Notes: generated from the letters alone by a model not told the origin. A DNA stretch of 64,000 nucleotides from Deltaproteobacteria bacterium (GCA_014191855.1 BJHF01000010.1:1121-65120); one strand, 5' to 3'; shown: positions 37,066 through 55,934, counted from the first letter of the stretch. Program-made: numbers and translations.

Positions 37066-38215
37066 CGATCGTGACCGCGCTCTGGATACGCACCGTCTCG
37101 TCGTTCGACCACGGCACGAACGCGCCCCCGCGAACATGGACGGCGGCCAGCGGGCTGAAGTACCACTTGAGGTCGGCATCCAGCTCGCCGCCGAGCGGCT
37201 CACCGGCCCCGTCCCACAGGTGGTGGACGGCGGCGTCGAGGCGCAAGGGAGGGGCAATGGTCGCCTTTGCGGTAAGCGCGGCGTCGAGCGCTCCGGCGCC
37301 GCTGCGCAAGCCGGTGTCGTCGAAGAGCCCAAGCCAGCCGAAGCGCTGGTGGGTGTCGGCGAGGGGGCGCAAGAAGGTCGGCGTTTCTCCGCCGCCGAGC
37401 CAGTCGAAGCGACCCGACAGCACCACGCGGGCGTCGTCGCCGAGCGCCCAGCCGAGCTGGCCGGACGCCATCGGGGCGGGCGCCCCGACCGTTGGCTGCA
37501 GGTACCCGTCCGCGGAAGCGCGGACGCGGCCCACTGCGGCGGATGCGGTGAGCCCGGTGGTCAAGAGCGGGCTCCGTTCCAAAGCGTAGACATCGGATTC
37601 CCAGGTGTTCACGAGGAGAAACACGGCGCCCACCTTCCATGCGGCGGAGGGGTTCTCGCGGCCGGCCCCAAGGCGTAGCGCATGGAACGCGCTGCTCCAG
37701 TCGGACCCAAACCGGTCGTGCTGAACGGCCATGCCCGTGATCGCGTCCAGCTCCCACGGGAGCGCGCGAACGCGCACTCGGCCCGCGAGGGGAAAATTAC
37801 CTTCGAGGCGTAGATCGTCGTCCCCCAGCACCGCGCCATCGTCCCATTCGAGCGGCTGAATCCCGCCGGAGAACTCCAGACCGAGGGCCGACGAGAGGGG
37901 AACGGACCAGCCGGCCCAGGCTTCGCCGAAGCGGGGGCCGTCGGTCAGCGTGATCCCGATCGGGTGCCAGACGACCGAGTCCGCGAGGCTCAGGCGGAGC
38001 CGCAGGGATTTACGCTGAGCTTCCAGGCCGAGGCGACCGGCGAGGGTGAAGAGGTCACTGCCCCCCCCGTCCGGCAGCGTAAGCTCCGACTCCACCCCGG
38101 TTCGCAGCTCCAGGACGGGTTTCCACTCCAAAACAGGCGCGCCCAGCCCGGGCCGCGCACCAGTGGCGTCGTCGCCGGCAAGCGCCAGTTGCACCGCTAG
38201 AAGCCCGGCGAACAT
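37052..38215 (-). CDS. Outer-membrane beta-barrel protein (alginate-export/porin-like)
   Basis: 387 aa with signal-like MFAGLLAVQLALA. Alternating amphipathic strands run throughout. The family assignment is tentative. Confidence 0.6.
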   Translation of the reverse strand: MFAGLLAVQLALAGDDATGARPGLGAPVLEWKPVLELRTGVESELTLPDGGGSDLFTLAGRLGLEAQRKSLRLRLSLADSVVWHPIGITLTDGPRFGEAWAGWSVPLSSALGLEFSGGIQPLEWDDGAVLGDDDLRLEGNFPLAGRVRVRALPWELDAITGMAVQHDRFGSDWSSAFHALRLGAGRENPSAAWKVGAVFLLVNTWESDVYALERSPLLTTGLTASAAVGRVRASADGYLQPTVGAPAPMASGQLGWALGDDARVVLSGRFDWLGGGETPTFLRPLADTHQRFGWLGLFDDTGLRSGAGALDAALTAKATIAPPLRLDAAVHHLWDGAGEPLGGELDADLKWYFSPLAAVHVRGGAFVPWSNDETVRIQSAVTIDASL

Positions 38216-40626
38216 GCAGGCTCCGTGGTGAGCGGGAAGGGGGCAGCCCAGCGCACGAAGCCGTCTTCAGGCAGGAGGTTGGGGTCGTCCTGGCCGGCGG
38301 GCGTGACGAGATCCCACGGCGTGGCTGCTGCGGGAAGCGTCGCAAACGTCGTTGCGTCGAGGCGGGTGTAGAGCGCGCTCGGGCGGGCGTTGTCGCGCAT
38401 CAGTCCGGACCTGTGAATGCCGTGACTGAGGCCGCCTTCCACGAACGTGCCGTTGGGCGTGACGAACAGCCGCGCGAGGTAGCGATACACGTAGTTGTTT
38501 CGTGCCAGCGCCTCGGCCTCGGTGAGGTGCGGACGTGCGAGACCCGGGTCGAAGCCCACTGGGTCCAACGCGAACGCGAAGCCGCGCAGGGAGCCGGCCG
38601 CGCCACCCGCACCGGCGCTCGTCGCGCTTCCCAGCACCTGCCAGTCGGGCGGTGGGGCATCCTCCTGGCGCGGGAGGGCGGTGAACGCAGCGGCCTCAGC
38701 GCGCCCACAATGTAGGTTTGCACGGGCGGTTCGGTCGGTCGTCGCCTTCAGTGCCGCGTCTGCGCGGTCCGCCTCGGGCGCGACCTTCGGCGCGGGCAGC
38801 GCACGATCCCACATCGCGGTCGATGTCTCGGTGGCGGCAGCGCCCTCGATGACGGCGAGATCGAGGACCACGGAAACGCCGCCTTCGGGGCTGGTGGTGC
38901 GCCCGTGGCGCAGGGTTGGCCCACGGTTGTCGAAGTCGTTGCAGATTCCGCCGATGATCGTGCTTTGAACCTGGATTGTCGTGCTATCGAGGAGGCTGGC
39001 GCCGAGGTCGAGGCCGGCGAGGCAGATGCCCTCTTCGGCGCGCGCGGCCGTGTCGATCTGGAAGCCTTGGAGCACGACTCCCGCGCCCGGCGTCGTGACC
39101 CCGATGGGCACGCGGACGGTGTACGCGGGCCGCGCCTGCTCCATCAGCTCCGCCACCGAGGGGTTCTCCCGCTCGCGGTCGCGTGGTACCACCGTGATCC
39201 GAACGCGGTAGCGCGTGAAATTCAAGCCGGGAACCCCGCTGTAGTCGGTGAGCGCCACGGCTTGCCGATTACGGCCGATCGCGCTTCGCGGAAGGAACGT
39301 ACGCGCCCACATCCCCAACGAGCCCCCAATCTCCACCTGCCAACGGCCCCCCAGCGCCCGAGTCCACGCGCCCGGCTCGCCCTCGCTGTTCTTGGCGAGC
39401 GACACGGCGAGCTGCGCCAGGCGATGGTCCCGGGCAAACCAGCGTAGATCGAAGCCGTTCAGACCGAGCGGGAGGGCATCCGGCATGCGCTCCACGGAGA
39501 TCAACCGCGCCCATGCACCGCTGTGGGGGGCCGCGGTGGGCGTAGTGAGCACCGTGGCGTTGGGGTGCCAGGCGGAGCCCGCTTCGGCGTCGTTGTCGAA
39601 GAGCACGAGCGCCTCCACGGCGTCGGACTCCGGGTTGGACGAAGGCAAGACCGCCAGTGCAGACGGCCGATCGTGGAAGATGTCGGCCAGATCGAGCGGC
39701 GTGAGCCGGTCCCCGTCTACCCTCCAGAGGCGTCCGCCGAAGGCGGGCTCGGTGTCGTAGCCGTAGCTGTCCCATGCTGAAACGGCGTAGATATGGCCGC
39801 TCTGGGTGCTCAGCCCGGTCAGCCCTTCAGCCGGGCCGAGCGGGGCACCGCTGCTGCCGTCGGCGAGCACCGAGAGGGTGGCGGCCAGCCCCATCTTCGC
39901 GTCCACCAGCGGGTAGCGCAACACCCGCAGCGCGGGGCCGGAGCACCGGCTGAGGCCCACGTACACGTCGCCCCCTTCTCGGTCGTAGGCCAACCCTTCC
40001 ACGAGCAGGTCGTCGTTGCAGTTGGCGCGGCCCCAGTCCGATAACGAGTCGCGAAGGCGGGTGATCTCGGGGAGATCCTGCTCGACCCAGGTCTGTCCGC
40101 GGCGCTCCAGCACAAAGAGCCGTTCGGTTTGACGCCGACTGCGCGCCATCAGATCGCGACGAAACCCGGTTCGGCGGCCGACCGAGGAATACTTCGTCAC
40201 CCCGATCACCCGATTGGGCCCGAATGCCGAGAGGTCCTCGACATCGAACGGGGCGCGTACGCCCTTCTCTCGCTCCAACCAGTCGATCGGCTGGGCCTGG
40301 AGGCGCACCTCGGCCCGAAAATGCCGCACATCGCAACGGGCAGAGGCGTTGTCGTCTTCGGCACAACTGTCGCGCCCATCCCGCAGCGGAAGGAGGTCCA
40401 GCAGGCCGCCCGGCCGCAGCGCCGTGTCGGGGTCCGGGGCGTACAACACGTCCGCCACGCCCTCCGCCACCGCGACCACGTGCCCGTCGTCCAATAGCGC
40501 CACCCCGCTAAGCTCCAGCGGCGCCGTTTTCCCGGGAGGCTCAAGCGAGAGCAGGGGGTAGCTCCGGTACTGGGCGCAGCCCGACGCCGCGAGCAACAGC
40601 GCGATCAACCCGGGACGCGTCGCCAC
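38197..40626 (-). CDS. Large hypothetical lipoprotein
   Basis: 809 aa with lipobox LLLAASGC. The N-terminal half has beta-propeller/phytase-like character, but I recognise no firm family. It overlaps both neighbours (19 and 22 nt). Confidence 0.7.
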   Translation of the reverse strand: MATRPGLIALLLAASGCAQYRSYPLLSLEPPGKTAPLELSGVALLDDGHVVAVAEGVADVLYAPDPDTALRPGGLLDLLPLRDGRDSCAEDDNASARCDVRHFRAEVRLQAQPIDWLEREKGVRAPFDVEDLSAFGPNRVIGVTKYSSVGRRTGFRRDLMARSRRQTERLFVLERRGQTWVEQDLPEITRLRDSLSDWGRANCNDDLLVEGLAYDREGGDVYVGLSRCSGPALRVLRYPLVDAKMGLAATLSVLADGSSGAPLGPAEGLTGLSTQSGHIYAVSAWDSYGYDTEPAFGGRLWRVDGDRLTPLDLADIFHDRPSALAVLPSSNPESDAVEALVLFDNDAEAGSAWHPNATVLTTPTAAPHSGAWARLISVERMPDALPLGLNGFDLRWFARDHRLAQLAVSLAKNSEGEPGAWTRALGGRWQVEIGGSLGMWARTFLPRSAIGRNRQAVALTDYSGVPGLNFTRYRVRITVVPRDRERENPSVAELMEQARPAYTVRVPIGVTTPGAGVVLQGFQIDTAARAEEGICLAGLDLGASLLDSTTIQVQSTIIGGICNDFDNRGPTLRHGRTTSPEGGVSVVLDLAVIEGAAATETSTAMWDRALPAPKVAPEADRADAALKATTDRTARANLHCGRAEAAAFTALPRQEDAPPPDWQVLGSATSAGAGGAAGSLRGFAFALDPVGFDPGLARPHLTEAEALARNNYVYRYLARLFVTPNGTFVEGGLSHGIHRSGLMRDNARPSALYTRLDATTFATLPAAATPWDLVTPAGQDDPNLLPEDGFVRWAAPFPLTTEPACSPGF

Positions 40627-42525: not shown

Positions 42526-45372
42526 GTGTGCGTCAGCGGTAACGTACGTCGCGGGGTGCTCTTCGTGCCTTCCCTGATCCTCCTGGTCCTCTCCCTCCTC
42601 CCTGGCTGCACCCCGGAGCTGGATGCGCGGGCCAGGTTCGAGGCGGAGGTCGTGCCGGTTCTCCAGGCTCGATGCCTCAATTCGGCGTGCCATGGCGTCG
42701 AGGCCGGGGCCGAGCCGGAGCTGACCATCGACTGGACCCGAATGGTCGTCCAGCTCGACGCTCAGGGCGAGATCACCGACCTCGACGCCGCCTACGAAAC
42801 CGTTCGCCGCTACGTCGTAACCAACGAAGATCCGAAGTTCTCCTCGTTGCTGACCCGCCCGCTGCCCGCGGAGTTCGGCGGCACCCAGCACTACGGCGGG
42901 GCGTGCTTCACCTCTCCCGAGGATCCGGACTGGGTTGCCATGCGTGATTGGGTCGCGACCGAATCGGAGGGTGGGGAGGAACAGCCGGAGCTGAACGACC
43001 GGGAGCAGCTCTTCGCGGACACCGTACAGCCGCACCTCGTGGCCCGCGGATGCATGACCGGAAACTGCCACGGGCTCTCGGCCGCGCTGCCCTACCGCTT
43101 CGATGGCGGAGTTCAAGGGGAGTTTTCCCGCGCCTCCACCCGGGCCAACTACAGCTCGGCGCTTTCGATGGTGTCTTTGGATGGCGACGCCACGCAGTCG
43201 CGACTCATCCGGAAGGGACTCAACCTCTTCGCGGGAGGGATCATCCACAAGGGCGGGAACCAGGCGTTCTTCACCGGTCTGGGTGACGAAGCCGTGGACG
43301 CGGTAGAGGCCTGGGCGTGCGAGGAGCGCCGGGCGCGGCTCGGGGTGCCCTGCGAGGCCGCTTCGGACGGATTTGTATACGTACGCGGCCCGGTTGAGGC
43401 GGAGGACCCCTTCGACCTTGATGCGTTCGTGCCGGGCAGCGACATCTGGTGGTCCCGCGCCGACGGCAGCCGGGAGAACCTGACGGAGAGTCTACACCTT
43501 GGGGCGGCAGATGTCCGGGAGCCCGCGGTGGATCCGACGGGCACCCGGTTGGCCTTCGTGATGCGGGAGGAGGGGGACGCCGGGCATCACGCCTGGGTGA
43601 TGGACCTGAACACCCGGGTCGCGACGCAGGTGACCACGGGGGATGTCGGCGCCGACCGCGATCCCACCTGGTCGCCCGATGGAAAGTTGTGGTTCACCTC
43701 GTCCCGAGCCGGGATCCTCGCGGACGATGGCGTGCGGCTCGACGCCGAGCTGTACGAGTTGAACCTCTCAAGCGGCGAGGTGACCCGCCGCACGTGGACG
43801 CCCCACATCGAGCGCAAGCCGGTGTTCTTCGTCATTGGCACGGAAAACGGGGGGGAGGTGGGCTTCACTGCCCTGCGCGAGGCGATTCGGAGCAAACAAC
43901 GCGCCCACATCTTCCGGTTTCCGCCCGATCTGGAGACGGAGTACCACCCCCATTTTGGGATCTCCGCGCCGGAAAACATGTTCTACGACATGCGGGAGCT
44001 CCCGGACGGCCGATTCAGCGTGATCCTGTCCGAGGTGAACAACGTTTGGGAGGGAGGGCGCTTGGCGATCGTGGAGCGCAACTTCGGACCCGAGATTCCG
44101 GCGGGAGGAGAAGATTCCGCCTCGATCCCGTTCTATGCCGACCCGATCGCGCGGCTGGACGACGAGGCAGCGGCCTCGGGCGTCTCTGGCAGCCTGTATC
44201 GCGATCCTTCCGCCGAGCCGGACGGTCGCGTGTTGGTCGCGCGGGCGATCGGCCCGATTGACCTTGGAGATCCGGAAGCGACACCCGTGTTCCGCATTGA
44301 ACGCCTGACGTTGGCCGAGTCGGTGAGCGGGGAGGGCCCCTCCATCTCCGGGCGGGAGGTGGTGCTCGAAGAAGCAGGGATGTCCGTGTATGATCCGGAG
44401 CCGGTGTATGTGCGCCGCGGCGCTCCGCTGGTGGCGGAGCCGTCCTGGGATCCGGCGGAGACGACGGGGGTGGTGCGGGTGATCGGGTTGGGCACCATCG
44501 CTTCGTTGTTGCTGGACTTGCCGCCAACCGGAGCCAAGCCCGTTGCGTATGGGGTGGTGGGCGTGCGGCTCGTGGAAGCGCTGCCACTTACCCCCGCTGA
44601 GCGCGTCGCGGTGCCTGAGGCCGACCTGCGGGATGGAGCCTCGAACGCCACCAGCACCGGCATCGGCCCTTTCCCGCCCGCGCGGGTGCTCGCCGAGCTG
44701 CCGATCGCGGCGGACGGTTCGTTGTATGGGGAGCTTCCGGCGGGGGTATCGTTCCGGCTGCAGCCGCTCGACAGCAGCGGGCGGGCGATCGACATTGACT
44801 ACAATCGTTGGTACTACGTGGCCCCCGGGCAGGTGCTGACCCAGGGTGTTTCAGCGACGGACGACCATTACTACACGTTCGCGTGCGCCGTGTGCCACGG
44901 ATCGATGAGCGGGGTTCCCGAAGACGTGTTCGTCGAGCCGGACATCATGACCACCGCCTCGATCTCGCTGGCGCAGTATGTCAACAAGGATCCACGCCGC
45001 CCGATCGCGCCGCCCCAGGCGGGCGACGCGACTCGCGTGGAGGCCGATTGGCGGAGGGACATCCTGCCGATCCTCACGGGCGGCTGCGCTTGGGGCGGGT
45101 GTCACTCCGCGCAAGACAGGGCCGCGGGCCTGAGCCTGACCGCGGAGGCGACGACGTGGTTTGACGATGCGTACGAGAGCCTCTTGGGCGGGTATGTGGT
45201 GCCGGGCAGCAGCTACCAGAGCCACCTTACGGAGGTGCTCACCGGCGAGGAATTGACGGCGAGCGCTGCGCTTGCCGCGCCTGGGACACCGCACGGCGGG
45301 CTCACCACCGAGGAGATCCTGGCGATCACGCGCTGGATCGATCTCGGCGCCACCTGGCGGGGAACCCCATGA
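42526..45372 (+). CDS. Lipoprotein with PSCyt-like Cys-His motifs and PD40/TolB-like propeller repeats
   Basis: Start uncertain: a GTG at 42526 gives MCVSGNVRRGVLFVPSLILLVLSLLPGC, and another GTG lies at 42556. Motifs are VVPVLQARCLNSACHG, VQPHLVARGCMTGNCHG, FACAVCHGS and ILPILTGGCAWGGCHS. The middle carries DPTWSPDGKLWFTS-type PD40 repeats. Confidence 0.75.
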   Translation: MCVSGNVRRGVLFVPSLILLVLSLLPGCTPELDARARFEAEVVPVLQARCLNSACHGVEAGAEPELTIDWTRMVVQLDAQGEITDLDAAYETVRRYVVTNEDPKFSSLLTRPLPAEFGGTQHYGGACFTSPEDPDWVAMRDWVATESEGGEEQPELNDREQLFADTVQPHLVARGCMTGNCHGLSAALPYRFDGGVQGEFSRASTRANYSSALSMVSLDGDATQSRLIRKGLNLFAGGIIHKGGNQAFFTGLGDEAVDAVEAWACEERRARLGVPCEAASDGFVYVRGPVEAEDPFDLDAFVPGSDIWWSRADGSRENLTESLHLGAADVREPAVDPTGTRLAFVMREEGDAGHHAWVMDLNTRVATQVTTGDVGADRDPTWSPDGKLWFTSSRAGILADDGVRLDAELYELNLSSGEVTRRTWTPHIERKPVFFVIGTENGGEVGFTALREAIRSKQRAHIFRFPPDLETEYHPHFGISAPENMFYDMRELPDGRFSVILSEVNNVWEGGRLAIVERNFGPEIPAGGEDSASIPFYADPIARLDDEAAASGVSGSLYRDPSAEPDGRVLVARAIGPIDLGDPEATPVFRIERLTLAESVSGEGPSISGREVVLEEAGMSVYDPEPVYVRRGAPLVAEPSWDPAETTGVVRVIGLGTIASLLLDLPPTGAKPVAYGVVGVRLVEALPLTPAERVAVPEADLRDGASNATSTGIGPFPPARVLAELPIAADGSLYGELPAGVSFRLQPLDSSGRAIDIDYNRWYYVAPGQVLTQGVSATDDHYYTFACAVCHGSMSGVPEDVFVEPDIMTTASISLAQYVNKDPRRPIAPPQAGDATRVEADWRRDILPILTGGCAWGGCHSAQDRAAGLSLTAEATTWFDDAYESLLGGYVVPGSSYQSHLTEVLTGEELTASAALAAPGTPHGGLTTEEILAITRWIDLGATWRGTP

Positions 45373-45764
45373 TCTTTGTCCTGTTGGGCTGCATCGTAGA
45401 GGGCGAGGACGGCGCGCCGGGCGGCGGCGACAGCGGGGAGTTCTTCGCAAGCGTGGAGCCCATCCTCACGGAAGGTTGCGCGAACCCCTCCTGCCACGGG
45501 AACGGGGACCGGGCCTATCAGGTGTACGCCGTGCACCGATACCGCCTGGACGAGGCCGATCTGTGGGCCGACGGCGAGCTGAACGAGGCAGAGCACGCGG
45601 CGAATCTGGCGCAGGCGCGGGCGTTCGCAGCGCCGCCGTGGGAGCTCTGTCGCAAACCCCTGGACCCCGCAGCGGGCGGGATGTCGCATGAGGGCGGCGT
45701 GAGCTGGTTTGCGGTGGACGATGCGGACTATGAGGCGGTGCGCGCCTGGTCGGAGGCTCCATGA
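45369..45764 (+). CDS. Small lipoprotein with the same CX4CH (PSCyt-like) motif
   Basis: 131 aa with lipobox FVLLGC, and VEPILTEGCANPSCHG. The ATG overlaps the upstream stop (ATGA). Confidence 0.7.
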   Translation: MIFVLLGCIVEGEDGAPGGGDSGEFFASVEPILTEGCANPSCHGNGDRAYQVYAVHRYRLDEADLWADGELNEAEHAANLAQARAFAAPPWELCRKPLDPAAGGMSHEGGVSWFAVDDADYEAVRAWSEAP

Positions 45765-45961
45765 ATCGTTGGTGTTTCCTGGCTGTGTGGTTGGGCGGCT
45801 GCGCTCACCTGGCCCCCTACGAGCGGGCCCCGCTGATGACCCGAATCATGCAGGACCCCTATGACGAACGCGAGGCCGGGGCGGTGGCGCATGTGATCGA
45901 GGTGCGGGAGGCGATGGGCGGCGCCACGACCGGCTCGGGGGCCTCGTGTGGTTGCCGATAG
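45761..45961 (+). CDS. DUF4266 family small lipoprotein
   Basis: 66 aa with lipobox VWLGGC. APYERAPLMTRIMQDPYDE and the C-terminal GSGASCGCR match the DUF4266 pattern as I recall it (..PWERG.L....M..D..., ending GGGCGCN). Confidence 0.7.
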   Translation: MNRWCFLAVWLGGCAHLAPYERAPLMTRIMQDPYDEREAGAVAHVIEVREAMGGATTGSGASCGCR

Positions 45962-47061
45962 CGCTCGTTATTTGCGGGGGATCGTCGCGCGCGGTGGAGC
46001 CCGCCGCCGTGTCAGCCCCGCCACCCGTGCACGTGGAGGAGGCCTCCGCGCGCGTGGATGCCTTCACGGACGGGTGGATTTCAGTGGTGGGGCCCGGCGG
46101 CGCCGTTGAGGTGGGGCTCCCGAAGGGATGGTCGGTGAACGCCGCGTGGTCGGCTGACATCATCACGGGGGCGACGCCGCGCGTCGCGACGGACGCCGTG
46201 TCGTCGGCGACCCGGTTCTCGGAGCTGCGCAATGGCGTGTCGGTGGGCGCGAACCTGGCGTCGTCGGCCGAGTGGTCGGCCCACGGATCGTATTCGGGGA
46301 GCACCGAGTCTGATTTTGTGTCCCATACGGCGGGTGCCGGGGCGAAAGTGGATGCCTTCGGTCGAATGTCAACCTTCAGCCTGGACTACAAGGCGCGCTT
46401 CGAGACGACGGGACGCGTGGACGACGACGCGTATGCGGAGACGGCCGCTGCCCACATTTTGGACCTGGGATGGACCTGGATCCTCGATCGCAACACCAAG
46501 GGGACGGTTCTGGCAACCGGGGAGTGGGATGCGTGCTCAGAGGCGTTGGGGTGCGTTGCGAGCCCATACCGTAAAGTGGAAACGATGCAGGGACTCGCGC
46601 TTTCGGAGCGCCACCCGGATGAGCGGGGGCGGGTGGCGGCCGCGGTGAGGGTGTCTCGCGCGTTGGGGTCGGCCACCGCCGTTCATGGCGGGTATCGACT
46701 CTACTCCGACACCTGGGCGGTGCTGGGGCACACGGTTGATCTCTCGCTGATACGGTCGCTGTTTCACGAGGCCCTGGTATTGCGGGGGAACGCTCGCCTG
46801 GCGCGGCAGGGGGCGGCTTCGTTTTGGGCGGCGGGCTACGGCGGGGACTCGGAGTGGCGCACGGGGGACCGAGATCTGGGCGCGCTCACGGCCTGGCAGG
46901 CGGGGGTGGCGGTGGAAGGGGCGCGCTTTGGCGTTGGGCCGTTCTCCCGGTTGAGCCTGAGCGCTCACCTGGATCATCTGTGGTTGCGCCACGATGACTT
47001 CCTCCAGGACACAAGCCACGACGCCTGGTTTTTTGGCGGGGGACTCCATGCGGCCTTTTGA
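45946..47061 (+). CDS. DUF3570-like outer-membrane beta-barrel protein
   Basis: 371 aa with a GTG start overlapping DUF4266 by 16 nt. It has beta-rich alternating strands, a DAVSSATRFSELR motif, and the usual DUF4266-DUF3570 adjacency. Confidence 0.6.
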   Translation: MWLPIALVICGGSSRAVEPAAVSAPPPVHVEEASARVDAFTDGWISVVGPGGAVEVGLPKGWSVNAAWSADIITGATPRVATDAVSSATRFSELRNGVSVGANLASSAEWSAHGSYSGSTESDFVSHTAGAGAKVDAFGRMSTFSLDYKARFETTGRVDDDAYAETAAAHILDLGWTWILDRNTKGTVLATGEWDACSEALGCVASPYRKVETMQGLALSERHPDERGRVAAAVRVSRALGSATAVHGGYRLYSDTWAVLGHTVDLSLIRSLFHEALVLRGNARLARQGAASFWAAGYGGDSEWRTGDRDLGALTAWQAGVAVEGARFGVGPFSRLSLSAHLDHLWLRHDDFLQDTSHDAWFFGGGLHAAF

Positions 47062-47578
47062 CGTCATTGCGGCGCTCTCTCTCGCTGGCGCTGTGGCGTG
47101 TACCTCCGACGGGCCCGACAGCGATTCCACCGGCGGGTCGGGTGAGGGCAAGGCCGAGATCGTGTGCGAGCTGGGAACGTGGACCGCCTCGGCGGGCTTC
47201 ACCCCCCTGGCGGCGGACCCGACCTTCGAGCTTCAGATGGGGTTCCAGGGTTTCTTGTTGATCGCGGTGAACCTGCGCACCGGCGAGCCGGACTTCGCAA
47301 AGGGGAACGCCGCGATGTCGGTGAAGGTGGACGGGGCCGATACCATCAGCGGCGAGCAGCCGGCCGTTGTATTCCACGACGGCGTGAGCGACACCATCCT
47401 GATTTTCTTCACGGCGAACTACCTAAGCTACTACGTCGGTCGTGGCGCCGAGGTGGCGGTGCGCATCGAGGATGCAACGCGGTACTGCGTCGTGCCGGCG
47501 GCAGGGACACTCGTGGATGAGGACCCCTGTATCCACACCGGCGCCGAGCCCATCTGTCCGGAGGACACGGGACCATGA
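47048..47578 (+). CDS. Hypothetical lipoprotein
   Basis: Trimmed to the ATG at 47048. Lipobox LAGAVAC. 176 aa with several Cys. It overlaps both neighbours. Confidence 0.6.
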   Translation: MRPFDVIAALSLAGAVACTSDGPDSDSTGGSGEGKAEIVCELGTWTASAGFTPLAADPTFELQMGFQGFLLIAVNLRTGEPDFAKGNAAMSVKVDGADTISGEQPAVVFHDGVSDTILIFFTANYLSYYVGRGAEVAVRIEDATRYCVVPAAGTLVDEDPCIHTGAEPICPEDTGP

Positions 47579-49971
47579 CTTCCTTCCTGCTTGTTTTGGG
47601 TCTGTTCGGCGGGTGTGCCGAGAGCTCCGACTGGGTTGCAACGTCGTTGACGCCGTACGAGAACCCGTTTCCATCAGACGATCCTCAGTACGCAGCCCAG
47701 CCCCACCGCTCGAAACCACAGGAGGTCGCGACCGTAGGCAACGTCGCCTGGGTGTCGCTGCCGGGCAGCTCCGACGACCCCGACAATCGCGTGGCGGTGG
47801 TCGACCTGGCGTCGGGAAGCGTTGTCACCCGGATCGACGTCGGCTCCAACCCGATGGGCCTCGCCGTGCGCCCCGACGGGAGTGCGGTGGTCGTGCTCAA
47901 CCGCTTCTCCAATTGGATCTCTGTCCTCGACCCGGTGAACAACCGCGAAATGAGCCGGATCCCGACCGACTTCTACGCGACCGAGGCGGTGTTTTCTCCG
48001 GATGGACGGACGCTCTACGTCACCAACCGCTGGCTTGACCGCGTGGGCGTGTGGCGCCTCGACGACGAGATGGCGGCGACGTGGCTCGGCTCGATCCGGG
48101 CCGGGGTGAACCCGCGGGACCTCGCGATCAACGCGGATGGAAGCCTCGTGGCGGTGGCGAACGTGACCGGGCTGGACGTATCGATCCTCGACACCGCGAC
48201 GAACACGGAGGTGCGCCGCGTGGACCTCTCCGCACCGCCCAACGGGCTCGCGTTCGTGGGGGACTGGCTGGTGGTGGCCACGCTCTCGGCGTCCAGCAAC
48301 CATCTTCCGTTCGCCGGTCCCGACACCAACGGCGATGGCCTGCCGGGGGACGGAACGCCGAACAGCAACTTCCAGGACGTGCAGAACGAGGTCGCGGTGA
48401 TCGAACCGGTGCGCGGCGAGGTGGTGTGGCGGTACACCTCGGACACCATCTGCTGCAAGGACTTTCGGGATATCGATCCCGCCGATACCACGCTATATGG
48501 GGAGCTTTTGCCGCCGAGTGACACGTGGATTGTTGGCGGCGCGCTGCCCGAGCAGGTGGTCGCGGACGGGGAGGGGGTGTGGGTCACCTACTCCGGCTCC
48601 AACCAGTTCCAACGGTTCGGTGTGAACGCGGTGACGGGAGCGCTGTCGGCGCAGGAGGTTTTTGACACTGCCGGCCACAATCCCCACGGCATCGCGGTGG
48701 CTGGCGACGGGCGGCTGTTGATCGCACACCGGCTCGGGGAGACGCTCGGGGTGTACGGCCGCGACGGCGCGCTGCACGACGAGGTGGAGGTTGGCGACGT
48801 GTCGGGTGGGGCGTTCCCCGCCACAGACGCAGAGATCGGGGAGCTCTACAACTTCGTGACGGCCCGGTTCAGCGTAGACGGCGATCAGGTGTGCGCGAGC
48901 TGCCACCGCGAGCAGGACAACATCAGCAAGGTGTTTGGCATGCCGCTCTCGGTGTACGGGGGGCAAAACAGCCGGATGACCATGGCCTCGCGTGGCATGG
49001 CGGATACGCGCCCGTGGTTCTTCGAGGGCGCGATGGACCAGACCAACTTCCGGCCGGTCATCAACGAATTCGCCCGGGTGGAGAACTTCTGCTGCGAGGA
49101 CTACACGCTGTTTCCGGACGGCGCGCCGGCCGATTGCGCCACCAACCCTCCGCCCGAGTGTGACACGGAGCCGAACGCGTATACGCCGGAGGGAATTACC
49201 GCCATGCGCGGCTCACCCCTGGCTCATCCGCGTCCGACGACCTCGCTCACCCGGGAGGCCTTCTACCTGGCGCGTGCAGCCGAGGTGATTGGCCGCACCG
49301 AGACCTTCGGGGATGCCGTGTACGCGGAGGACCTGGTGACCGGCGAGCGCGCTCCGTTGTCGCTCAGCCTGGACGGGATCACCAAGTCGCTGGGGGTGTT
49401 CCTGCTCCAGAACACGGCGTTGTTGCCGAACCCGAACGATCCCGAGAGCGCTGCGGCCCGCCGCGGGAAGGCGATCTTCGAGAGCGCCACCTCCAACTGT
49501 GCGAGTTGCCACCCCGCTCCCACCTTCGCGGCATCCACTGACAACAACCCCGCAGGGGTGCCGCTCCGCATGGACCCGGTGGTGACCCCCGACTACAGCG
49601 ACGCGGGGATCAACCTCGATCTGGTTTCCGATGGCTTTCAGAGCATCTTCCCGCTCGTGGAGCAGGACTCGTGCGCCGAGGTGTGCGGTGAGTCCGTGTG
49701 CGCGGAGGACGCTGCGGTGTGTGACGACGTGCGCAACATCCGACTCAACCCCACGCCGCTCCGTGGGCTCTGGGATCGCGCCCCTCGGATGCTCCACGAC
49801 GGGCGGGCAAAGAGCCTGCGGGAGGCGATCTGCACGCCCGGGCACCCGGCGCTGCTCCCCGGGGAGGTGGGGTACAACGAGCGCAACGGGGTGCCGGATA
49901 CCAACGGGGGGACGAGCCACCTTTCGGTGGGGGAGGTGGAGGATTTGATGGTGTATCTGATGACGTTGTAG
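47575..49971 (+). CDS. Lipoprotein: YVTN-type beta-propeller fused to di-haem cytochrome c peroxidase-like domain
   Basis: 798 aa with lipobox LGLFGGC. Repeats are GSNPMGLAVRPDGSAVVV, FSPDGRTLYVTN and GVNPRDLAINADGSLVAV. Two CXXCH sites are present (VCASCHREQ and NCASCHPAPTF), the second in the CCP/MauG-like context. Confidence 0.7.
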   Translation: MTSFLLVLGLFGGCAESSDWVATSLTPYENPFPSDDPQYAAQPHRSKPQEVATVGNVAWVSLPGSSDDPDNRVAVVDLASGSVVTRIDVGSNPMGLAVRPDGSAVVVLNRFSNWISVLDPVNNREMSRIPTDFYATEAVFSPDGRTLYVTNRWLDRVGVWRLDDEMAATWLGSIRAGVNPRDLAINADGSLVAVANVTGLDVSILDTATNTEVRRVDLSAPPNGLAFVGDWLVVATLSASSNHLPFAGPDTNGDGLPGDGTPNSNFQDVQNEVAVIEPVRGEVVWRYTSDTICCKDFRDIDPADTTLYGELLPPSDTWIVGGALPEQVVADGEGVWVTYSGSNQFQRFGVNAVTGALSAQEVFDTAGHNPHGIAVAGDGRLLIAHRLGETLGVYGRDGALHDEVEVGDVSGGAFPATDAEIGELYNFVTARFSVDGDQVCASCHREQDNISKVFGMPLSVYGGQNSRMTMASRGMADTRPWFFEGAMDQTNFRPVINEFARVENFCCEDYTLFPDGAPADCATNPPPECDTEPNAYTPEGITAMRGSPLAHPRPTTSLTREAFYLARAAEVIGRTETFGDAVYAEDLVTGERAPLSLSLDGITKSLGVFLLQNTALLPNPNDPESAAARRGKAIFESATSNCASCHPAPTFAASTDNNPAGVPLRMDPVVTPDYSDAGINLDLVSDGFQSIFPLVEQDSCAEVCGESVCAEDAAVCDDVRNIRLNPTPLRGLWDRAPRMLHDGRAKSLREAICTPGHPALLPGEVGYNERNGVPDTNGGTSHLSVGEVEDLMVYLMTL

Positions 49972-50224
49972 GGCGGGGGTTCAGCCACTTGTTCTACACA
50001 CCTAGCAGTACGCCTCCGACTCGGGCTAAGTGCCGGCTTGATCGCGCATGATCGTCGAGACCGGCGTGAACGATTCCCGCGGAGGTTGCCTGACCTTGTG
50101 GCTCCCGTAACGAATCGCCGTGGGCGGCCTGTGTCGCCTTTGCCGCGGACGGGGGCCCGACGGCGCCAGGCGCCACCACCGTGCCGCGGTAACGAAGGGA
50201 GCTGCAGCTTCGGTGCCCGCTCGC

Positions 50225-50270
50225 TTGACGACATCGATAACTCGATGTATGCATCGATATACCGATATGC
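50225..50270 (+). promoter_or_regulatory. Candidate promoter plus twin inverted-repeat operator of the XRE gene
   Basis: TTGACG lies at 50225-50230. O1 is ATCGA-taac-TCGAT (50233-50246, perfect 5-4-5 inverted repeat). O2 is ATCGA-tata-CCGAT (50253-50266). The centres are 20 bp apart, and O2 abuts the ATG at 50267. This is an A/T-rich island in GC-rich DNA. Confidence 0.45.
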
Positions 50271-51052
50271 GCCGTCGTCCACACCCCTCCGACCTCGACA
50301 AGTCCCGCCGCCGGGTTGTCGCGAAGGTGCGCGAGCTGCGGACCGACCGCCGGTGGACGCAGGCGGAGCTCGCCGTGAAGCTCGGGCTCTCCCAGGCGAG
50401 GCTGAGCGAGATCGAGCGCGGTGGGGGCTCGTTCACCGCCGAACAGTTCATCGAGGTGCTTCGCCTGTTCAACGTGAACGTCGATGCGTTCACCGCACCG
50501 CAGCCGGTCGAGGACGAGCTGCAGAACGCGCTCGCCCGCCTTGGCGCGCTCCACCTGCGCGAGGTTTCCAGTGCTCTTCCAAGCGCTCGGGTCGCGGGTG
50601 TGCGGGCCGCCGTGCGAGAGACGCTCCTGGGCCCAACGGACGCGCGCCTGCTTTTGGCGCTTGCGCCCGTGTTGCTGGCGAACCTCGACACGCTGAACCT
50701 CGATGTGCTGCATGATGAACTCGTCGCCATCGGATTCCCGGCGCGCGTGCCCTGGCTCGTCGAGAACGTCCACGCCGCGCTCTTTCTCTGCCGCGTGTCC
50801 CAAGGACGCCCAGCGGCAACCCGATGGCATCGATCGGTGGCCGTCCTGGGCGACTTCGTGTCCCGGCACCCCCCGCCGGCCAGCGAAGCTCCGCGCCGCC
50901 TCGACCACATCGACGTCGGAATTCGCAGTAAACGCGCGCTCGCGCAGGTCCAGGCTGCCGCGTCCGACATCTCTCGAAAATGGGGCATCGTCAGCGACCT
51001 CCAGCCGGCTGACTTCGCCGATGCCCTGCGAGCCGCCGATGTCGCAGGTTGA
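50267..51052 (+). CDS. XRE-family helix-turn-helix protein with long uncharacterized C-terminal domain
   Basis: Trimmed to the ATG at 50267 (alternative ATG at 50249). LRTDRRWTQAELAVKLGLSQARLSEIERG is the HTH_3/XRE signature. About 190 further residues have no family I recognise. Confidence 0.8.
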   Translation: MRRRPHPSDLDKSRRRVVAKVRELRTDRRWTQAELAVKLGLSQARLSEIERGGGSFTAEQFIEVLRLFNVNVDAFTAPQPVEDELQNALARLGALHLREVSSALPSARVAGVRAAVRETLLGPTDARLLLALAPVLLANLDTLNLDVLHDELVAIGFPARVPWLVENVHAALFLCRVSQGRPAATRWHRSVAVLGDFVSRHPPPASEAPRRLDHIDVGIRSKRALAQVQAAASDISRKWGIVSDLQPADFADALRAADVAG

Positions 51053-51641
51053 GGAGTTCTTCCGGGACCTGGATCGGTCCTGGCCGCTCGCAGCTGGAAC
51101 CCCTGTCACCCTTCGCCTCCTGGGCTCGACCGCGCTCATCCTGCAGACGAGCTTCCAGCGGGGCACCAAGGACAGCGACATTCTGGAGACCGACCAGATC
51201 ACCGCCGACATCGAGTCTGCGCTCCTCGCCCTCGCAGGCAAGGAGACCGCCATTCATCGACGTCATAGGATGTACCTTGAGTTTATCGGTGCGGCGTTTC
51301 CTTTCCTTCCGGTCTACCCACTTTGGCACGCCGTGGTGCCGTCCGGGCTGGACCATCAGAACTTCCGCCTCGAAGTGCTGGATGTCGTGGACGTGGTGAT
51401 CGCGAAGTTGGCCCGGTTCCACAAGACGGATCGCGACGACATCTCGGCGATGGCGGAGCGCGACCTCATCGAACCACAACGGTTTGCTGAGCGCTTTCAG
51501 TCTGCTGTCCAGCGGTGGTGGCATGACTCCAGGGCCGACGATCTCCCGAGGATCATCAGGAACTTTCACCAGGTGCAATCCGACGAGTTGTTCGTGTGGC
51601 CATCCCGAGTAGAGTTGCCCCGGTGGGTCGAGGACGAATGA
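51039..51641 (+). CDS. Pol-beta-superfamily nucleotidyltransferase, DUF6036-like (second copy)
   Basis: The start is an ATG at 51039 or 51021, overlapping the XRE gene. LRLLGSTALILQTSFQRGTKDSDIL fits hG[GS]x9-13DxD. LDVVDVVIAKLARFHKTDRDDISAM parallels HDVLVSKLERWEPQDREHAKAI of the 5972..6511 protein. Confidence 0.65.
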   Translation: MSQVEEFFRDLDRSWPLAAGTPVTLRLLGSTALILQTSFQRGTKDSDILETDQITADIESALLALAGKETAIHRRHRMYLEFIGAAFPFLPVYPLWHAVVPSGLDHQNFRLEVLDVVDVVIAKLARFHKTDRDDISAMAERDLIEPQRFAERFQSAVQRWWHDSRADDLPRIIRNFHQVQSDELFVWPSRVELPRWVEDE

Positions 51642-55902: not shown

Positions 55903-55934
55903 GCCGAAGCATACCACATCGCCGGGGGGTGCCC

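What the first reader, a model, noticed from the sequence alone, without database searches (positions are those of the whole stretch)
42526..49971. Six-gene translationally coupled envelope cluster: CX4CH proteins, DUF4266, DUF3570 and a propeller-peroxidase fusion
All five junctions overlap (4, 4, 16, 14 and 4 nt), which argues for one operon. The first two products repeat a motif [VI]xP[IVH]Lxxx(x)C-x4-CH[GS] four times. The instances are ARCLNSACHG, ARGCMTGNCHG, GGCAWGGCHS and EGCANPSCHG, and one true CXXCH (CAVCH) is also present. The context resembles the planctomycete cytochrome PSCyt1 motif, but with four residues between the Cys instead of two. Next come the uncharacterised DUF4266 lipoprotein, its usual DUF3570 barrel partner, and another lipoprotein. 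The last gene encodes a YVTN propeller fused to a domain with two CXXCH sites in a cytochrome c peroxidase/MauG-like context. The pairing of DUF4266/DUF3570 with putative haem proteins hints at an outer-membrane-associated redox or peroxide/metal-handling system that has not been characterised.
Basis: partly seen in the sequence, partly recalled or inferred. Interest (0 to 1): 0.6.

Follow-up and report, generated by a model that had tools for sequence, protein, structure and literature searches.

The report
Hydrazine-synthase-like haem operon with flavin module
This six-gene operon from an uncultured myxobacterium-like genome encodes relatives of both halves of the anammox enzyme hydrazine synthase. 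They are wrapped around a flavin-carrying electron-transfer module (DUF4266/DUF3570), so it is most likely a new cell-envelope redox enzyme and not a hydrazine producer.

Summary

Gene 1 is a homologue of hydrazine synthase (HZS) alpha: profile against PDB 5C2V_A gives E=1.5e-33, and an AF2 model against 5C2V_A gives E=7e-33. Gene 6 is an HZS beta-gamma-type fusion. The CX4CH units are four copies of the HZS-alpha C-terminal haem module, each with an invariant second His. At the C-terminal copy, CX4CH and CXXCH interchange among homologues, so these are very probably haem sites.

DUF3570 is not uncharacterised. It is a published substrate of the flavin transferase ApbE, and gene 4 keeps the TGAT flavinylation motif.

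The six-gene order recurs in 21 of 40 related loci, nearly all Myxococcota MAGs, often with a TlpA-like thioredoxin and ApbE. In 14 other loci an imelysin plus DHOR di-haem gene pair replaces genes 5 and 6.

Residues specific to HZS catalysis are absent, so hydrazine synthesis is unlikely.

HZS-like proteins outside anammox bacteria (2025) and the DUF3570 system (2021) are both published. I found no report of their fusion into one operon. I rate it a new variant of a known kind. The substrate is unknown.

The parts
42526..45372 (+). g1: lipoprotein of 948 aa, a hydrazine-synthase-alpha-like tetrahaem protein. It has two N-terminal haem modules, a TolB-like propeller, an HZS-alpha middle domain and a C-terminal haem module. 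Alternative starts are 42556 (the NCBI call, 938 aa) and 42433 (longest ORF).
   Evidence: Family profile against PDB 5c2v_A: E=1.5e-33 in five collinear segments. AF2 model pLDDT 90.8. Foldseek top hit 5c2v_A, E=6.7e-33, TM 0.61, 822 columns. Pfam HZS_alpha and PD40, NCBIfam hydrazine_alpha. The lipobox Cys28 is at least 90% conserved.
42610..42975 (+). g1 haem module N1 (residues 29-150). CX4CH at C50-H56 (nt 42673-42693). Invariant second His at H122.
   Evidence: C50, C55 and H56 are present in 103 of 106 aligned sequences, the other three being gapped there. H122 is present in 106 of 106. N1 is homologous to N2 and to g2 (E=1.6e-7 and 2.9e-11).
42976..43365 (+). g1 haem module N2 (residues 151-280). 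CX4CH at C176-H182 (nt 43051-43071). Invariant second His at H241.
   Evidence: C176, C181, H182 and H241 are invariant in 106 of 106 sequences.
43369..44490 (+). g1 beta-propeller (about residues 282-655), of the TolB/PD40 type, equivalent to the N-terminal propeller of HZS-alpha.
   Evidence: PD40 and TolB hits. Profile segments align to 5c2v_A residues 56-199 and 328-355. The model is all-beta here.
44491..45000 (+). g1 middle domain (about residues 656-825) with the canonical CXXCH at C787-H791 (nt 44884-44898). This is the equivalent of HZS haem alpha-I.
   Evidence: PF18582 HZS_alpha covers residues 703-770. The profile aligns to 5c2v_A 455-549. C787, C790, H791, G792 and G796 are invariant. 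There is no Tyr at His+3 to His+5.
45001..45369 (+). g1 C-terminal haem module (residues 826-948). CX4CH at C854-H860 (nt 45085-45105). Conserved second His at H923. This is the equivalent of HZS haem alpha-II.
   Evidence: Aligns to 5c2v_A 632-769 including its CAMCH. The Cys-Cys spacing in homologues is 2 in 69, 4 in 32 and 3 in 3. H923 is present in 98 of 106.
45369..45764 (+). g2: small lipoprotein of 131 aa, a single free-standing copy of the same haem module. CX4CH at C37-H43 (nt 45477-45497). Second His at H107.
   Evidence: Homologous to g1 N1, N2 and C-terminal modules (E=2.9e-11, 6.7e-11 and 1.4e-5). All 20 family members have CX4CH, and H107 is at least 90% conserved.
45761..45961 (+). 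g3: DUF4266 lipoprotein of 66 aa with a C-terminal CGC (residues 63-65, nt 45947-45955).
   Evidence: PF14086, E=2.4e-8. The lipobox Cys and the C-terminal CGC are conserved in 28 homologues. The CXC motif is described in PMC8238504.
45946..47061 (+). g4: DUF3570 protein of 371 aa, a predicted FMN carrier and probably an outer-membrane barrel. Flavinylation-type motif D71-x-x-T74-G-A-T77 (nt 46165-46176). A degenerate second motif S86-S-A-T89.
   Evidence: PF12094, E=1.2e-13. [ST]GA[ST] is present in 28 of 29 homologues. The motif and flavinylation by ApbE were shown for the Chlorobium DUF3570 (PMC8238504). The C-terminal residue is aromatic in 19 of 29 homologues.
47048..47578 (+). g5: lipoprotein of 176 aa with no known family. 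It has four conserved Cys and a D-x-D-x-C-x-H motif near the C-terminus. It occurs only where g6 occurs.
   Evidence: No Pfam or NCBIfam hit. Conservation pattern from 19 homologues. g5 and g6 are present in exactly the same 21 loci.
47575..49971 (+). g6: lipoprotein of 798 aa, an HZS beta-gamma-type fusion. A 7-bladed YVTN propeller (about residues 48-410, nt 47716-48804) is followed by a di-haem domain (residues 411-798, nt 48805-49968). CXXCH at C440-H444 (nt 48892-48906) and C642-H646 (nt 49498-49512).
   Evidence: NCBIfam hydrazine_BC, hydrazine_beta and hydrazine_gamma. Family profile: 5c2v_B E=1.7e-23 and 5c2v_C E=8.6e-10. A profile of the C-terminal half hits only 5c2v_C in the PDB. 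AF2 pLDDT 91.6. Foldseek 5c2v_B E=2.5e-18, TM 0.73. Both CXXCH motifs, W481, H741 and H757 are invariant, and C506/C507 are present in 56 of 57.

Best explanation
The operon encodes a lipoprotein-anchored redox complex outside the cytoplasm, built from two published kinds of parts that have not been reported together.

Part 1 is a hydrazine-synthase-like haem enzyme.
- g1 is alpha-like and carries four c-type haems: two extra N-terminal bis-His modules, a catalytic-type CXXCH haem in the middle domain, and a C-terminal bis-His module.
- g6 is a beta-gamma-like fusion of a propeller and a di-haem peroxidase-fold domain.
- g2 is a small monohaem cytochrome.
- g5 is a Cys-rich partner that always accompanies g6.

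Part 2 is the DUF4266 (CXC) / DUF3570 (FMN) electron-transfer module. In most relatives it comes with a TlpA-like thioredoxin and the flavin transferase ApbE.

Proposed mechanism (inferred): reducing equivalents from the inner membrane pass by thiol exchange (TlpA-like protein, then DUF4266) to the FMN on DUF3570. From there they travel along the chain of bis-His haems (g2 and the g1 modules) to the active-site haems of g6 and g1. Those sites reduce a small diffusible oxidant, with peroxide or NO/hydroxylamine the leading candidates. As in HZS, the two subunits may act in sequence.

It is not a hydrazine synthase, because the alpha-Tyr591 haem ligand is absent and g6 carries the CCP/MauG-type Trp in place of gamma-His144.

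Shown here: the homologies, the motif conservation and the synteny. Inferred: haem and FMN attachment, complex formation, direction of electron flow and substrate.
For: HZS homology:
- g1 family profile against 5c2v_A gives E=1.5e-33 over the propeller, middle and C-terminal domains.
- The g1 AF2 model (pLDDT 90.8) has 5c2v_A as its best PDB fold, E=6.7e-33, far ahead of TolB at about 1e-14.
- g6 profile against HZS-beta gives 1.7e-23 and against HZS-gamma 8.6e-10. Its di-haem half matches only HZS-gamma in the PDB. HZS-beta is among the top two folds.

Haem sites:
- The architecture CX4CH, CX4CH, CXXCH, CX(2-4)CH is present in all close relatives with a full-length g1.
- The four modules are mutually homologous, and each has an invariant or near-invariant second His.
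- CX4CH is an established though rare haem c motif (PMC6469936, PMC11492766).

Flavin module:
- DUF3570 and DUF4266 hits.
- TGAT motif and C-terminal CGC are conserved.
- Published flavinylation of DUF3570 and the ApbE/thioredoxin/DUF4266 association.

Linkage across 40 loci:
- g1-g2-g3-g4-g5-g6 occurs in 21 loci.
- DUF3570 occurs in 30 loci.
- Among the 21 six-gene loci, a TlpA-like gene is present in 18 and ApbE in 12.
- Independent gene calls on a 6.87-Mb contig give the same order, with overlaps of 4/4/4/16/14/22 nt.

A di-haem partner accompanies g1 in 35 of 39 loci: either g6 (21 loci) or DHOR (14 loci), never both.

Not HZS:
- The NCBIfam equivalog scores are 27 and 39 bits against cut-offs of 800 and 1250.
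- There is no Tyr at His+3 to His+5 after the middle CXXCH.
- W481 is invariant 37 residues after H444.
- The window holds no HAO/HDH-like multihaem gene.
Against: - The window has no ApbE, TlpA-like, DsbD, imelysin or DHOR gene, so the flavinylation and electron-input steps rely on genes elsewhere in this genome.
- No substrate-specific evidence exists, and neighbouring genes give no hint of a pathway.
- Complex formation between g1 and g6 was not modelled.
- The second flavinylation motif of DUF3570 is degenerate here (SSAT).
- Ten of 40 loci have g1 without DUF3570, so the HZS-like proteins can work without that module.
- The link to imelysin/DHOR in 14 loci points as much to iron or peroxide handling as to nitrogen chemistry.
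- All related loci are from MAGs, so there is no physiology.
Confidence: 0.6

Rival explanations
1. A MauG/MbnH-like protein-maturation system. The di-haem domain of g6 uses peroxide or O2 to oxidise a residue in a partner protein (g5 or g1) and so create a cofactor or metal site. The remaining genes supply or remove electrons.
For: g6 has the CCP/MauG-type invariant Trp between the haems and weak local hits to MbnH, MauG and CCP_MauG models. g5 is a small Cys/His/Asp-rich lipoprotein that occurs only where g6 occurs (21 of 21 loci), which resembles the MbnH-MbnP pairing (my own knowledge).
Against: The di-haem half matches HZS-gamma and no MauG or CCP chain in the PDB. g5 has no detectable similarity to MbnP or to any family. 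This reading does not explain the alpha-like subunit or the chain of five bis-His haem modules.
Confidence: 0.15
2. An iron or other metal redox and acquisition system at the outer membrane. The haem chain and FMN-DUF3570 reduce or oxidise extracellular or periplasmic iron.
For: In 14 related loci g1 sits directly behind an imelysin (Peptidase_M75) gene and a DHOR di-haem gene. As I recall, such pairs are associated with iron uptake. Meheust et al. note VIT1 iron transporters in 25 DUF3570 clusters and suggest a role in iron assimilation. All the proteins are envelope lipoproteins.
Against: Neither the window nor the six-gene loci examined have an iron transporter, TonB receptor or siderophore gene next to the cluster. 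The imelysin variant lacks g5 and g6, so it may be a functionally different system.
Confidence: 0.15
3. A genuine hydrazine synthase, meaning anammox-type N-N bond formation from NO and ammonium in a non-planctomycete.
For: Homologues of all three HZS subunits are in one operon, with beta and gamma fused as in Scalindua. A 2025 paper interpreted comparable HzsA-like genes in ten phyla as anammox potential (PMC11828985).
Against: Identity to HZS-alpha is about 17%. The equivalog models fail by a factor of more than 20 in bits. The alpha-Tyr591 ligand is absent. Trp replaces gamma-His144 (by spacing). The window has no hydrazine dehydrogenase or HAO-like gene. Hagglund et al. reached the same negative conclusion for other non-anammox homologues (PMC12758564).
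Confidence: 0.03
4. Two unrelated systems that merely lie side by side: a DUF4266/DUF3570 module inserted between cytochrome genes, with no functional coupling.
For: DUF3570 modules occur widely without HZS-like genes. Ten of 40 g1 loci lack DUF3570.
Against: g3 and g4 sit inside the operon between g2 and g5, with overlapping stop and start codons. The same order and overlap lengths are kept at about 45-75% protein identity across 21 loci. Even a Nitrospirae locus at 27% identity keeps g1-g2 with DUF4266-DUF3570-ApbE nearby.
Confidence: 0.05

Closest known systems
Hydrazine synthase HZS-alpha/beta/gamma of Kuenenia stuttgartiensis (PDB 5C2V; Dietl et al. 2015)
   Same: g1 shares the three-domain alpha architecture: a propeller, a middle domain with a CXXCH haem, and a C-terminal bis-His haem domain. 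g6 shares the 7-bladed beta propeller and the di-haem gamma domain, including the C-terminal HDG...GGTSHL...YL motif. The genes are adjacent. Evidence.
   Different: Identity is about 17%. g1 has about 280 extra N-terminal residues carrying two more haem modules. There is no Tyr ligand after the alpha-I CXXCH. Trp stands in place of gamma-His144. About 80 extra residues lie between the two haem motifs of the gamma-like domain. Alpha is upstream of beta-gamma. All the proteins are lipoproteins. DUF4266, DUF3570 and g5 are inserted between the subunit genes.
Non-anammox HZS alpha and beta-gamma homologues, clades I-IV (Hagglund et al. 2025, PMC12758564)
   Same: Alpha-like and fused beta-gamma-like genes are co-located, with alpha upstream. 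A canonical haem alpha-I pocket lacks Tyr591. A Trp replaces gamma-His144. A Cys lies near the gamma-Cys165 position. The authors concluded that these are not hydrazine synthases.
   Different: Those clades come from Planctomycetota, Desulfobacterota, Acidobacteriota and Verrucomicrobiota. Their neighbours are FG-GAP/CRTAC1 proteins and ABC-transporter binding proteins, and clade I carries c554-type multihaem N-termini on beta-gamma. The paper mentions neither Myxococcota nor DUF3570, DUF4266 or ApbE. In the family studied here the extra haems are CX4CH modules on alpha plus a separate g2, and a probable alpha-His772 equivalent (H923) is present.
DUF3570 / DUF4266 / thioredoxin-like / ApbE flavinylation cluster (Meheust et al. 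2021, PMC8238504)
   Same: g4 is a DUF3570 with the [S/T]GA[S/T] motif. g3 is a DUF4266 with the C-terminal CXC. Relatives of the locus carry a TlpA-like thioredoxin (21 of 40 loci) and ApbE (15 of 40). Evidence.
   Different: The published clusters have no assigned terminal enzyme, and the authors state that the function 'remains uncertain'. Here the module is embedded in an operon of seven-haem HZS-like proteins. The window itself lacks ApbE and the thioredoxin. The second flavinylation motif is degenerate.
Bacterial di-haem cytochrome c peroxidase / MauG / MbnH superfamily (PF03150, TIGR04039)
   Same: Two CXXCH motifs, an invariant Trp in a PWFFE context between them, and a PxLR...HDG motif.
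   Different: The score is below Pfam's gathering score (24.5 against 25.6). No CCP or MauG chain is matched in the PDB by the family profile. The domain is fused to a YVTN propeller.

Membership tests
Hydrazine synthase (functional HZS; NCBIfam NF052339 alpha, NF052342 beta-gamma fusion) | Alpha subunit with a propeller, a middle haem domain and a C-terminal haem domain | tested here: met
   Five collinear profile segments against 5c2v_A, E=1.5e-33. Foldseek E=6.7e-33, TM 0.61 over 822 columns.
Hydrazine synthase (functional HZS; NCBIfam NF052339 alpha, NF052342 beta-gamma fusion) | Score above the curated equivalog cut-offs | tested here: not met
   Alpha scores 27.1 bits against a cut-off of 800. 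The BC fusion scores 39.3 against 1250. Gamma scores 18.2 against 625.
Hydrazine synthase (functional HZS; NCBIfam NF052339 alpha, NF052342 beta-gamma fusion) | Haem alpha-I ligated by Tyr591, four residues after the CXXCH His | tested here: not met
   g1 reads CAVCH-G-S-M-S-G. Across 106 family members His+3 is L/A/P/M, His+4 is D/S/N/T and His+5 is an invariant G. The feature itself is as described in PMC12758564.
Hydrazine synthase (functional HZS; NCBIfam NF052339 alpha, NF052342 beta-gamma fusion) | His at gamma-144 rather than the CCP/MauG Trp | tested here: not met
   W481 is invariant (57 of 57) and lies 37 residues after the first CXXCH His. Gamma-His144 lies 38 residues after gamma-His106. 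This rests on spacing, not on a residue-level structural alignment.
Hydrazine synthase (functional HZS; NCBIfam NF052339 alpha, NF052342 beta-gamma fusion) | Third thioether from gamma-Cys165 to haem gamma-I | tested here: inconclusive
   A conserved CC pair at 506-507 (56 of 57) lies 62-63 residues after H444, compared with 59 in HZS-gamma. I could not retrieve the full HZS-gamma sequence.
Hydrazine synthase (functional HZS; NCBIfam NF052339 alpha, NF052342 beta-gamma fusion) | Zn site with alpha-Cys303, and the Mg-binding Glu of the beta loop | not tested
Hydrazine synthase (functional HZS; NCBIfam NF052339 alpha, NF052342 beta-gamma fusion) | A hydrazine dehydrogenase or HAO-type octahaem partner in the genome | tested here: not met
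   No other CXXCH-bearing gene in the 64-kb window. The rest of the genome was not available.
DUF3570/DUF4266 flavinylation-associated system (PMC8238504) | A DUF3570 protein (PF12094) with an [S/T]GA[S/T] flavinylation motif | tested here: met
   PF12094 at 51 bits against a cut-off of 25. T74-G-A-T77 is conserved in 28 of 29 homologues. The second site is degenerate (S-S/G/A-A-T).
DUF3570/DUF4266 flavinylation-associated system (PMC8238504) | An adjacent DUF4266 with a C-terminal CXC | tested here: met
   PF14086 at 35 bits against a cut-off of 27. The CGC at residues 63-65 is conserved.
DUF3570/DUF4266 flavinylation-associated system (PMC8238504) | ApbE and a thioredoxin-like protein in the cluster | tested here: not met
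   Absent from the whole window when searched with HMMs built from the neighbours in related loci. Present in related loci: ApbE in 15 of 40 and a TlpA-like gene in 21 of 40.
DUF3570/DUF4266 flavinylation-associated system (PMC8238504) | Covalent FMN on DUF3570 | not testable with these tools
   Needs co-expression with ApbE followed by UV-fluorescent SDS-PAGE or mass spectrometry.
c-type cytochrome with a CX4CH haem site | Conserved Cys-x4-Cys-His plus an axial ligand, homologous to a proven haem site | tested here: met
   The motifs are invariant in more than 100 homologues. The C-terminal copy aligns with the CAMCH of haem alpha-II in 5c2v_A and alternates between CXXCH and CX4CH. Each module has a second invariant His.
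c-type cytochrome with a CX4CH haem site | Covalent haem attachment | not testable with these tools
   Needs haem staining or mass spectrometry of the expressed protein.
PSCyt1 planctomycete cytochrome domain (PF07635) | Score above Pfam's gathering threshold | tested here: not met
   Only the C-terminal module gives a hit, E=0.033 at 15.2 bits against 22. N1, N2 and g2 give none.
Di-haem cytochrome c peroxidase / MauG (PF03150) | Score above Pfam's gathering threshold across the di-haem domain | tested here: not met
   24.5 bits against 25.6, covering residues 427-485 only. The family profile hits no CCP or MauG chain in the PDB at E<=1.

The most novel reading that the evidence does not exclude
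This may be the first example of a hydrazine-synthase-type two-site haem enzyme that is wired to a flavinylated DUF3570 electron conduit, in what are presumably aerobic Myxococcota. It might carry out NO/hydroxylamine chemistry with a channelled intermediate, or even N-N bond formation other than hydrazine. If so, it would be a living representative of the kind of periplasmic enzyme from which anammox HZS evolved, and it would give the orphan DUF3570 system its terminal enzyme.
Probability: 0.12. Interest if true: 0.85.

Novelty: new variant of a known kind. Interest (0 to 1): 0.62.

Why it matters
- It gives the widespread DUF3570/DUF4266/ApbE module a concrete candidate terminal enzyme. The function of that module was left open in 2021.
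- It adds a Myxococcota clade with a distinct architecture and gene context to the newly recognised HZS-like superfamily. That bears on how hydrazine synthase arose from periplasmic haem proteins.
- It is a caution against reading HzsA-like genes as evidence of anammox in metagenomes.
- It offers a natural test of the rare CX4CH haem motif: the same module carries CXXCH or CX4CH in close relatives.

Tried and rejected
- PSCyt1 as the identity of the CX4CH modules: sub-threshold, and only for one module.
- The Geobacter CxxxxCH...CXXCH family: E=0.037 and 0.0014, both below the cut-offs.
- CCP/MauG as the best description of the g6 C-terminal half: below the Pfam threshold, and no PDB CCP or MauG is matched.
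- g6 di-haem domain against DHOR by profile-profile comparison: only the second haem motif aligns (82% probability). The two partners are therefore analogous or only remotely related.
- Search for ApbE, TlpA-like, imelysin, DHOR and c4 genes in the window: none found.
- Promoter and terminator scan: no more sites than in shuffled sequence.
- Locus search with the 57-sequence alignment failed because no stretch was conserved enough. It worked with 14 sequences.
- The third homologue search, meant to retrieve full-length HZS-gamma from three known segments, returned only a 120-aa C-terminal fragment. The check for gamma-Cys165 therefore rests on spacing.
- Dietl et al. 2015 is not held, so HZS residue facts come from PMC12758564.
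- The held supplements of PMC8238504 contain no HZS_alpha or Lactonase entries.

Full report
**Observation**

The six + strand ORFs are real and carry the codon-position GC signature of genes (GC3 0.81-0.86). Their junctions overlap by exactly 4, 4, 16, 14 and 4 nt, and each start codon is preceded by a G-rich ribosome-binding-like stretch. Chance predicts about 0.005 CX4CH motifs in g1+g2, and only 92 of 20000 shuffles gave even one. No other gene in the window has such a motif. The window is identical to a protein of an NCBI MAG labelled 'Deltaproteobacteria bacterium LBMAG42'.

**What g1 and g6 are**

g1 hits the hydrazine synthase alpha middle domain (PF18582) and the NCBIfam hydrazine_alpha model. 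g6 hits the hydrazine_BC, hydrazine_beta and hydrazine_gamma models.

For g1:
- A profile of 57 homologues matches PDB 5C2V chain A (HZS-alpha) at E=1.5e-33, in five collinear segments covering the propeller, middle domain and C-terminal haem domain.
- An AlphaFold2 model (pLDDT 90.8, pTM 0.89) has 5C2V_A as by far its best PDB match: E=6.7e-33, TM 0.61 normalised to the target, 822 columns. TolB follows at about 1e-14.

For g6:
- The family profile matches HZS-beta at 1.7e-23 and HZS-gamma at 8.6e-10.
- A profile of the C-terminal di-haem half alone matches only HZS-gamma in the entire PDB at E<=1. The match covers both CXXCH regions and the C-terminal GGTSHL...YL motif.
- The model (pLDDT 91.6) has HZS-beta as one of its two best folds (E=2.5e-18, TM 0.73).

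The operon therefore encodes an HZS-alpha-like protein and an HZS-beta-gamma-type fusion.

**The CX4CH units**

Four stretches are mutually homologous: g1 residues 29-150, 151-280 and 826-948, and g2. Pairwise E-values range from 3e-11 to 9e-3. The third stretch aligns with the HZS-alpha domain that binds bis-His haem alpha-II, with its Cys pair opposite the CAMCH of HZS.

Across about 105 full-length homologues:
- The first two CX4CH motifs and the middle CXXCH are invariant wherever the residue is aligned.
- The C-terminal site is CXXCH in 69 homologues, CX4CH in 32 and CX3CH in 3.
- Each module has a second conserved His in a GG..H.GG context: H122 and H241 in 106 of 106, H923 in 98 of 106, and g2 H107 at 90% or more.

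The pattern 4,4,2,(2/3/4) is seen in all close relatives with a full-length g1. A distant Nitrospirae relative carries CXXCH in the g1 modules and CX4CH in its g2. CX4CH is a rare but crystallographically established haem c motif.

I conclude that these are bis-His c-type haem modules. That gives seven haems in the operon: four in g1, one in g2 and two in g6. Covalent attachment remains untested. The PSCyt1 comparison does not hold at Pfam thresholds.

**The DUF genes**

DUF3570 is not uncharacterised. Meheust et al. 2021 showed that a Chlorobium DUF3570 is flavinylated by ApbE at [S/T]GA[S/T] motifs. [quoted passage not shown] The function was left open.

- g4 carries D71-x-x-T74-G-A-T77. This motif is conserved in 28 of 29 homologues. 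A degenerate second site (SSAT) follows.
- g4 ends in an aromatic residue in most homologues, as outer-membrane barrels do.
- g3 keeps the lipobox Cys and the C-terminal CGC.

**Synteny**

A scan of GTDB species representatives found 38 loci, nearly all Myxococcota MAGs. I added one 6.87-Mb long-read contig that has independent gene calls. With the window, that makes 40 loci.

- Type A, 21 loci: the full order g1-g2-g3-g4-g5-g6. A TlpA/AhpC-TSA-type thioredoxin lies upstream in 18 and ApbE is present in 12 (families identified).
- Type B, 14 loci: no g5 or g6. An unknown 450-580-aa protein, an imelysin and a DHOR di-haem oxidoreductase lie next to g1, upstream in all but one locus. g1-g2 are usually followed by DUF4266-DUF3570.
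- g6 and DHOR never co-occur.
- g5 and g6 are present in exactly the same loci.
- DUF3570 is present in 30 of the 40 loci.

The overlap lengths 4/4/16/14 recur on the independent contig. The window itself has no ApbE, TlpA-like, imelysin or DHOR gene. Its flanks are unrelated: a divergent AI-2E transporter and a thioesterase upstream, and an HTH plus DUF6036 nucleotidyltransferase pair downstream.

**Is it a hydrazine synthase?**

No, on the evidence available.
- The equivalog models fail by more than twenty-fold in bits.
- The Tyr that ligates haem alpha-I four residues after the CXXCH His is absent. In the family, His+4 is D/S/N/T and His+5 is an invariant Gly.
- An invariant Trp (W481, in PWFFE) lies 37 residues after the first haem His of g6. 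HZS-gamma has His144 at +38, and CCP and MauG have their catalytic Trp at that position.
- The window has no HAO/HDH-type multihaem gene.
- A conserved CC pair at 506-507 might correspond to gamma-Cys165, but I could not align it residue by residue.

Hagglund et al. 2025 described co-located alpha and beta-gamma homologues in Planctomycetota, Desulfobacterota and other phyla, and reached the same negative conclusion from the same residues. They mention neither Myxococcota nor DUF3570, DUF4266 or ApbE. Another 2025 paper read such genes as anammox potential in ten phyla. The present analysis argues against that reading for this clade.

**Mechanism**

Shown here: the homology of g1 and g6 to HZS subunits, the conserved haem-motif architecture, the conserved flavinylation and CXC motifs, and tight, recurrent operon linkage.

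Inferred: a lipoprotein-anchored envelope complex in which thiol-derived electrons (TlpA-like protein, then the DUF4266 CXC) reach FMN on DUF3570. They then pass through the bis-His haems of g2 and g1 to the active-site haems of g6 and g1. Those sites reduce a small oxidant, perhaps in two channelled steps as in HZS. The CCP-type Trp and the alternative DHOR/imelysin context favour peroxide-type or metal-linked chemistry. The HZS-gamma-specific similarity keeps NO/hydroxylamine chemistry open. The direction of electron flow and the substrate are unknown.

Rival readings are listed with their tests: a MauG/MbnH-like maturation of g5, iron redox handling, a true hydrazine synthase, and two unrelated systems that merely adjoin.

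**Novelty and size of the family**

A full HMMER scan of 1.84 billion representatives finds 305 proteins at E<=1e-30. About 30 of these are full-length clusters at the 50% identity level, and there are truncated and extended variants. Both building blocks are published. Only four held papers mention DUF3570 at all, and none of the three listed connects it to hydrazine synthase. I therefore rate this a new variant of a known kind, of moderate to high interest, mainly because it makes two orphan systems jointly testable.

Noticed in passing
window 30503-34012 (+): A 1169-aa lipoprotein with 12 copies of the MopE-type 'putative metal-binding motif' (PF11617, E=7e-111) followed by a right-handed beta-helix.
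   Followed up: no
window 50120-51052 (+) and 50703-51641 (+): Directly downstream of g6 lie an XRE-type HTH protein and a DUF6036 nucleotidyltransferase, in overlapping ORFs. They look like a toxin-antitoxin or defence-type pair unrelated to the operon.
   Followed up: partly
window 37052-38215 (-) and 38197-40626 (-): Two overlapping (19 nt) large genes of 387 and 809 aa, the larger with a lipobox (LLAASGC). Neither has any Pfam hit.
   Followed up: no
window 56957-59941 (-) and 52747-55917 (-): Two secreted giants: a 994-aa protein with four lamin-tail domains plus a NosD-like beta-helix, and a 1056-aa protein with PKD/Ig domains.
   Followed up: no
window 49903-49905 (g6 residue 777): g6 of this window and its closest relative have Asn where 55 of 57 family members, and HZS-gamma, have His in the D-T-H-G-G-T-S-H-L motif. 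Five family members (three among the eight rows printed) instead replace the second His (H782) with Gln. This looks like either/or retention of one His, possibly a haem ligand.
   Followed up: partly
L007, L013-L016, L019, L024, L025, L029, L031-L033, L036 (next to g1; upstream except in L015, where the three genes lie downstream on the opposite strand): A variant locus type in which an unknown 450-580-aa protein, an imelysin (Peptidase_M75) and a DHOR di-haem oxidoreductase replace g5 and g6. DHOR and g6 are mutually exclusive.
   Followed up: partly
L003 14523-17192 and 19676-22426; L037 5760-12113: L003 carries two g6 copies, the second with its own g5. L037 is a Nitrospirae MAG locus at 27% identity. 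Its g1 lacks the N-terminal modules and has an extra C-terminal CXXCH module, yet the locus keeps g2 (CX4CH), DUF4266, DUF3570 and ApbE nearby.
   Followed up: partly
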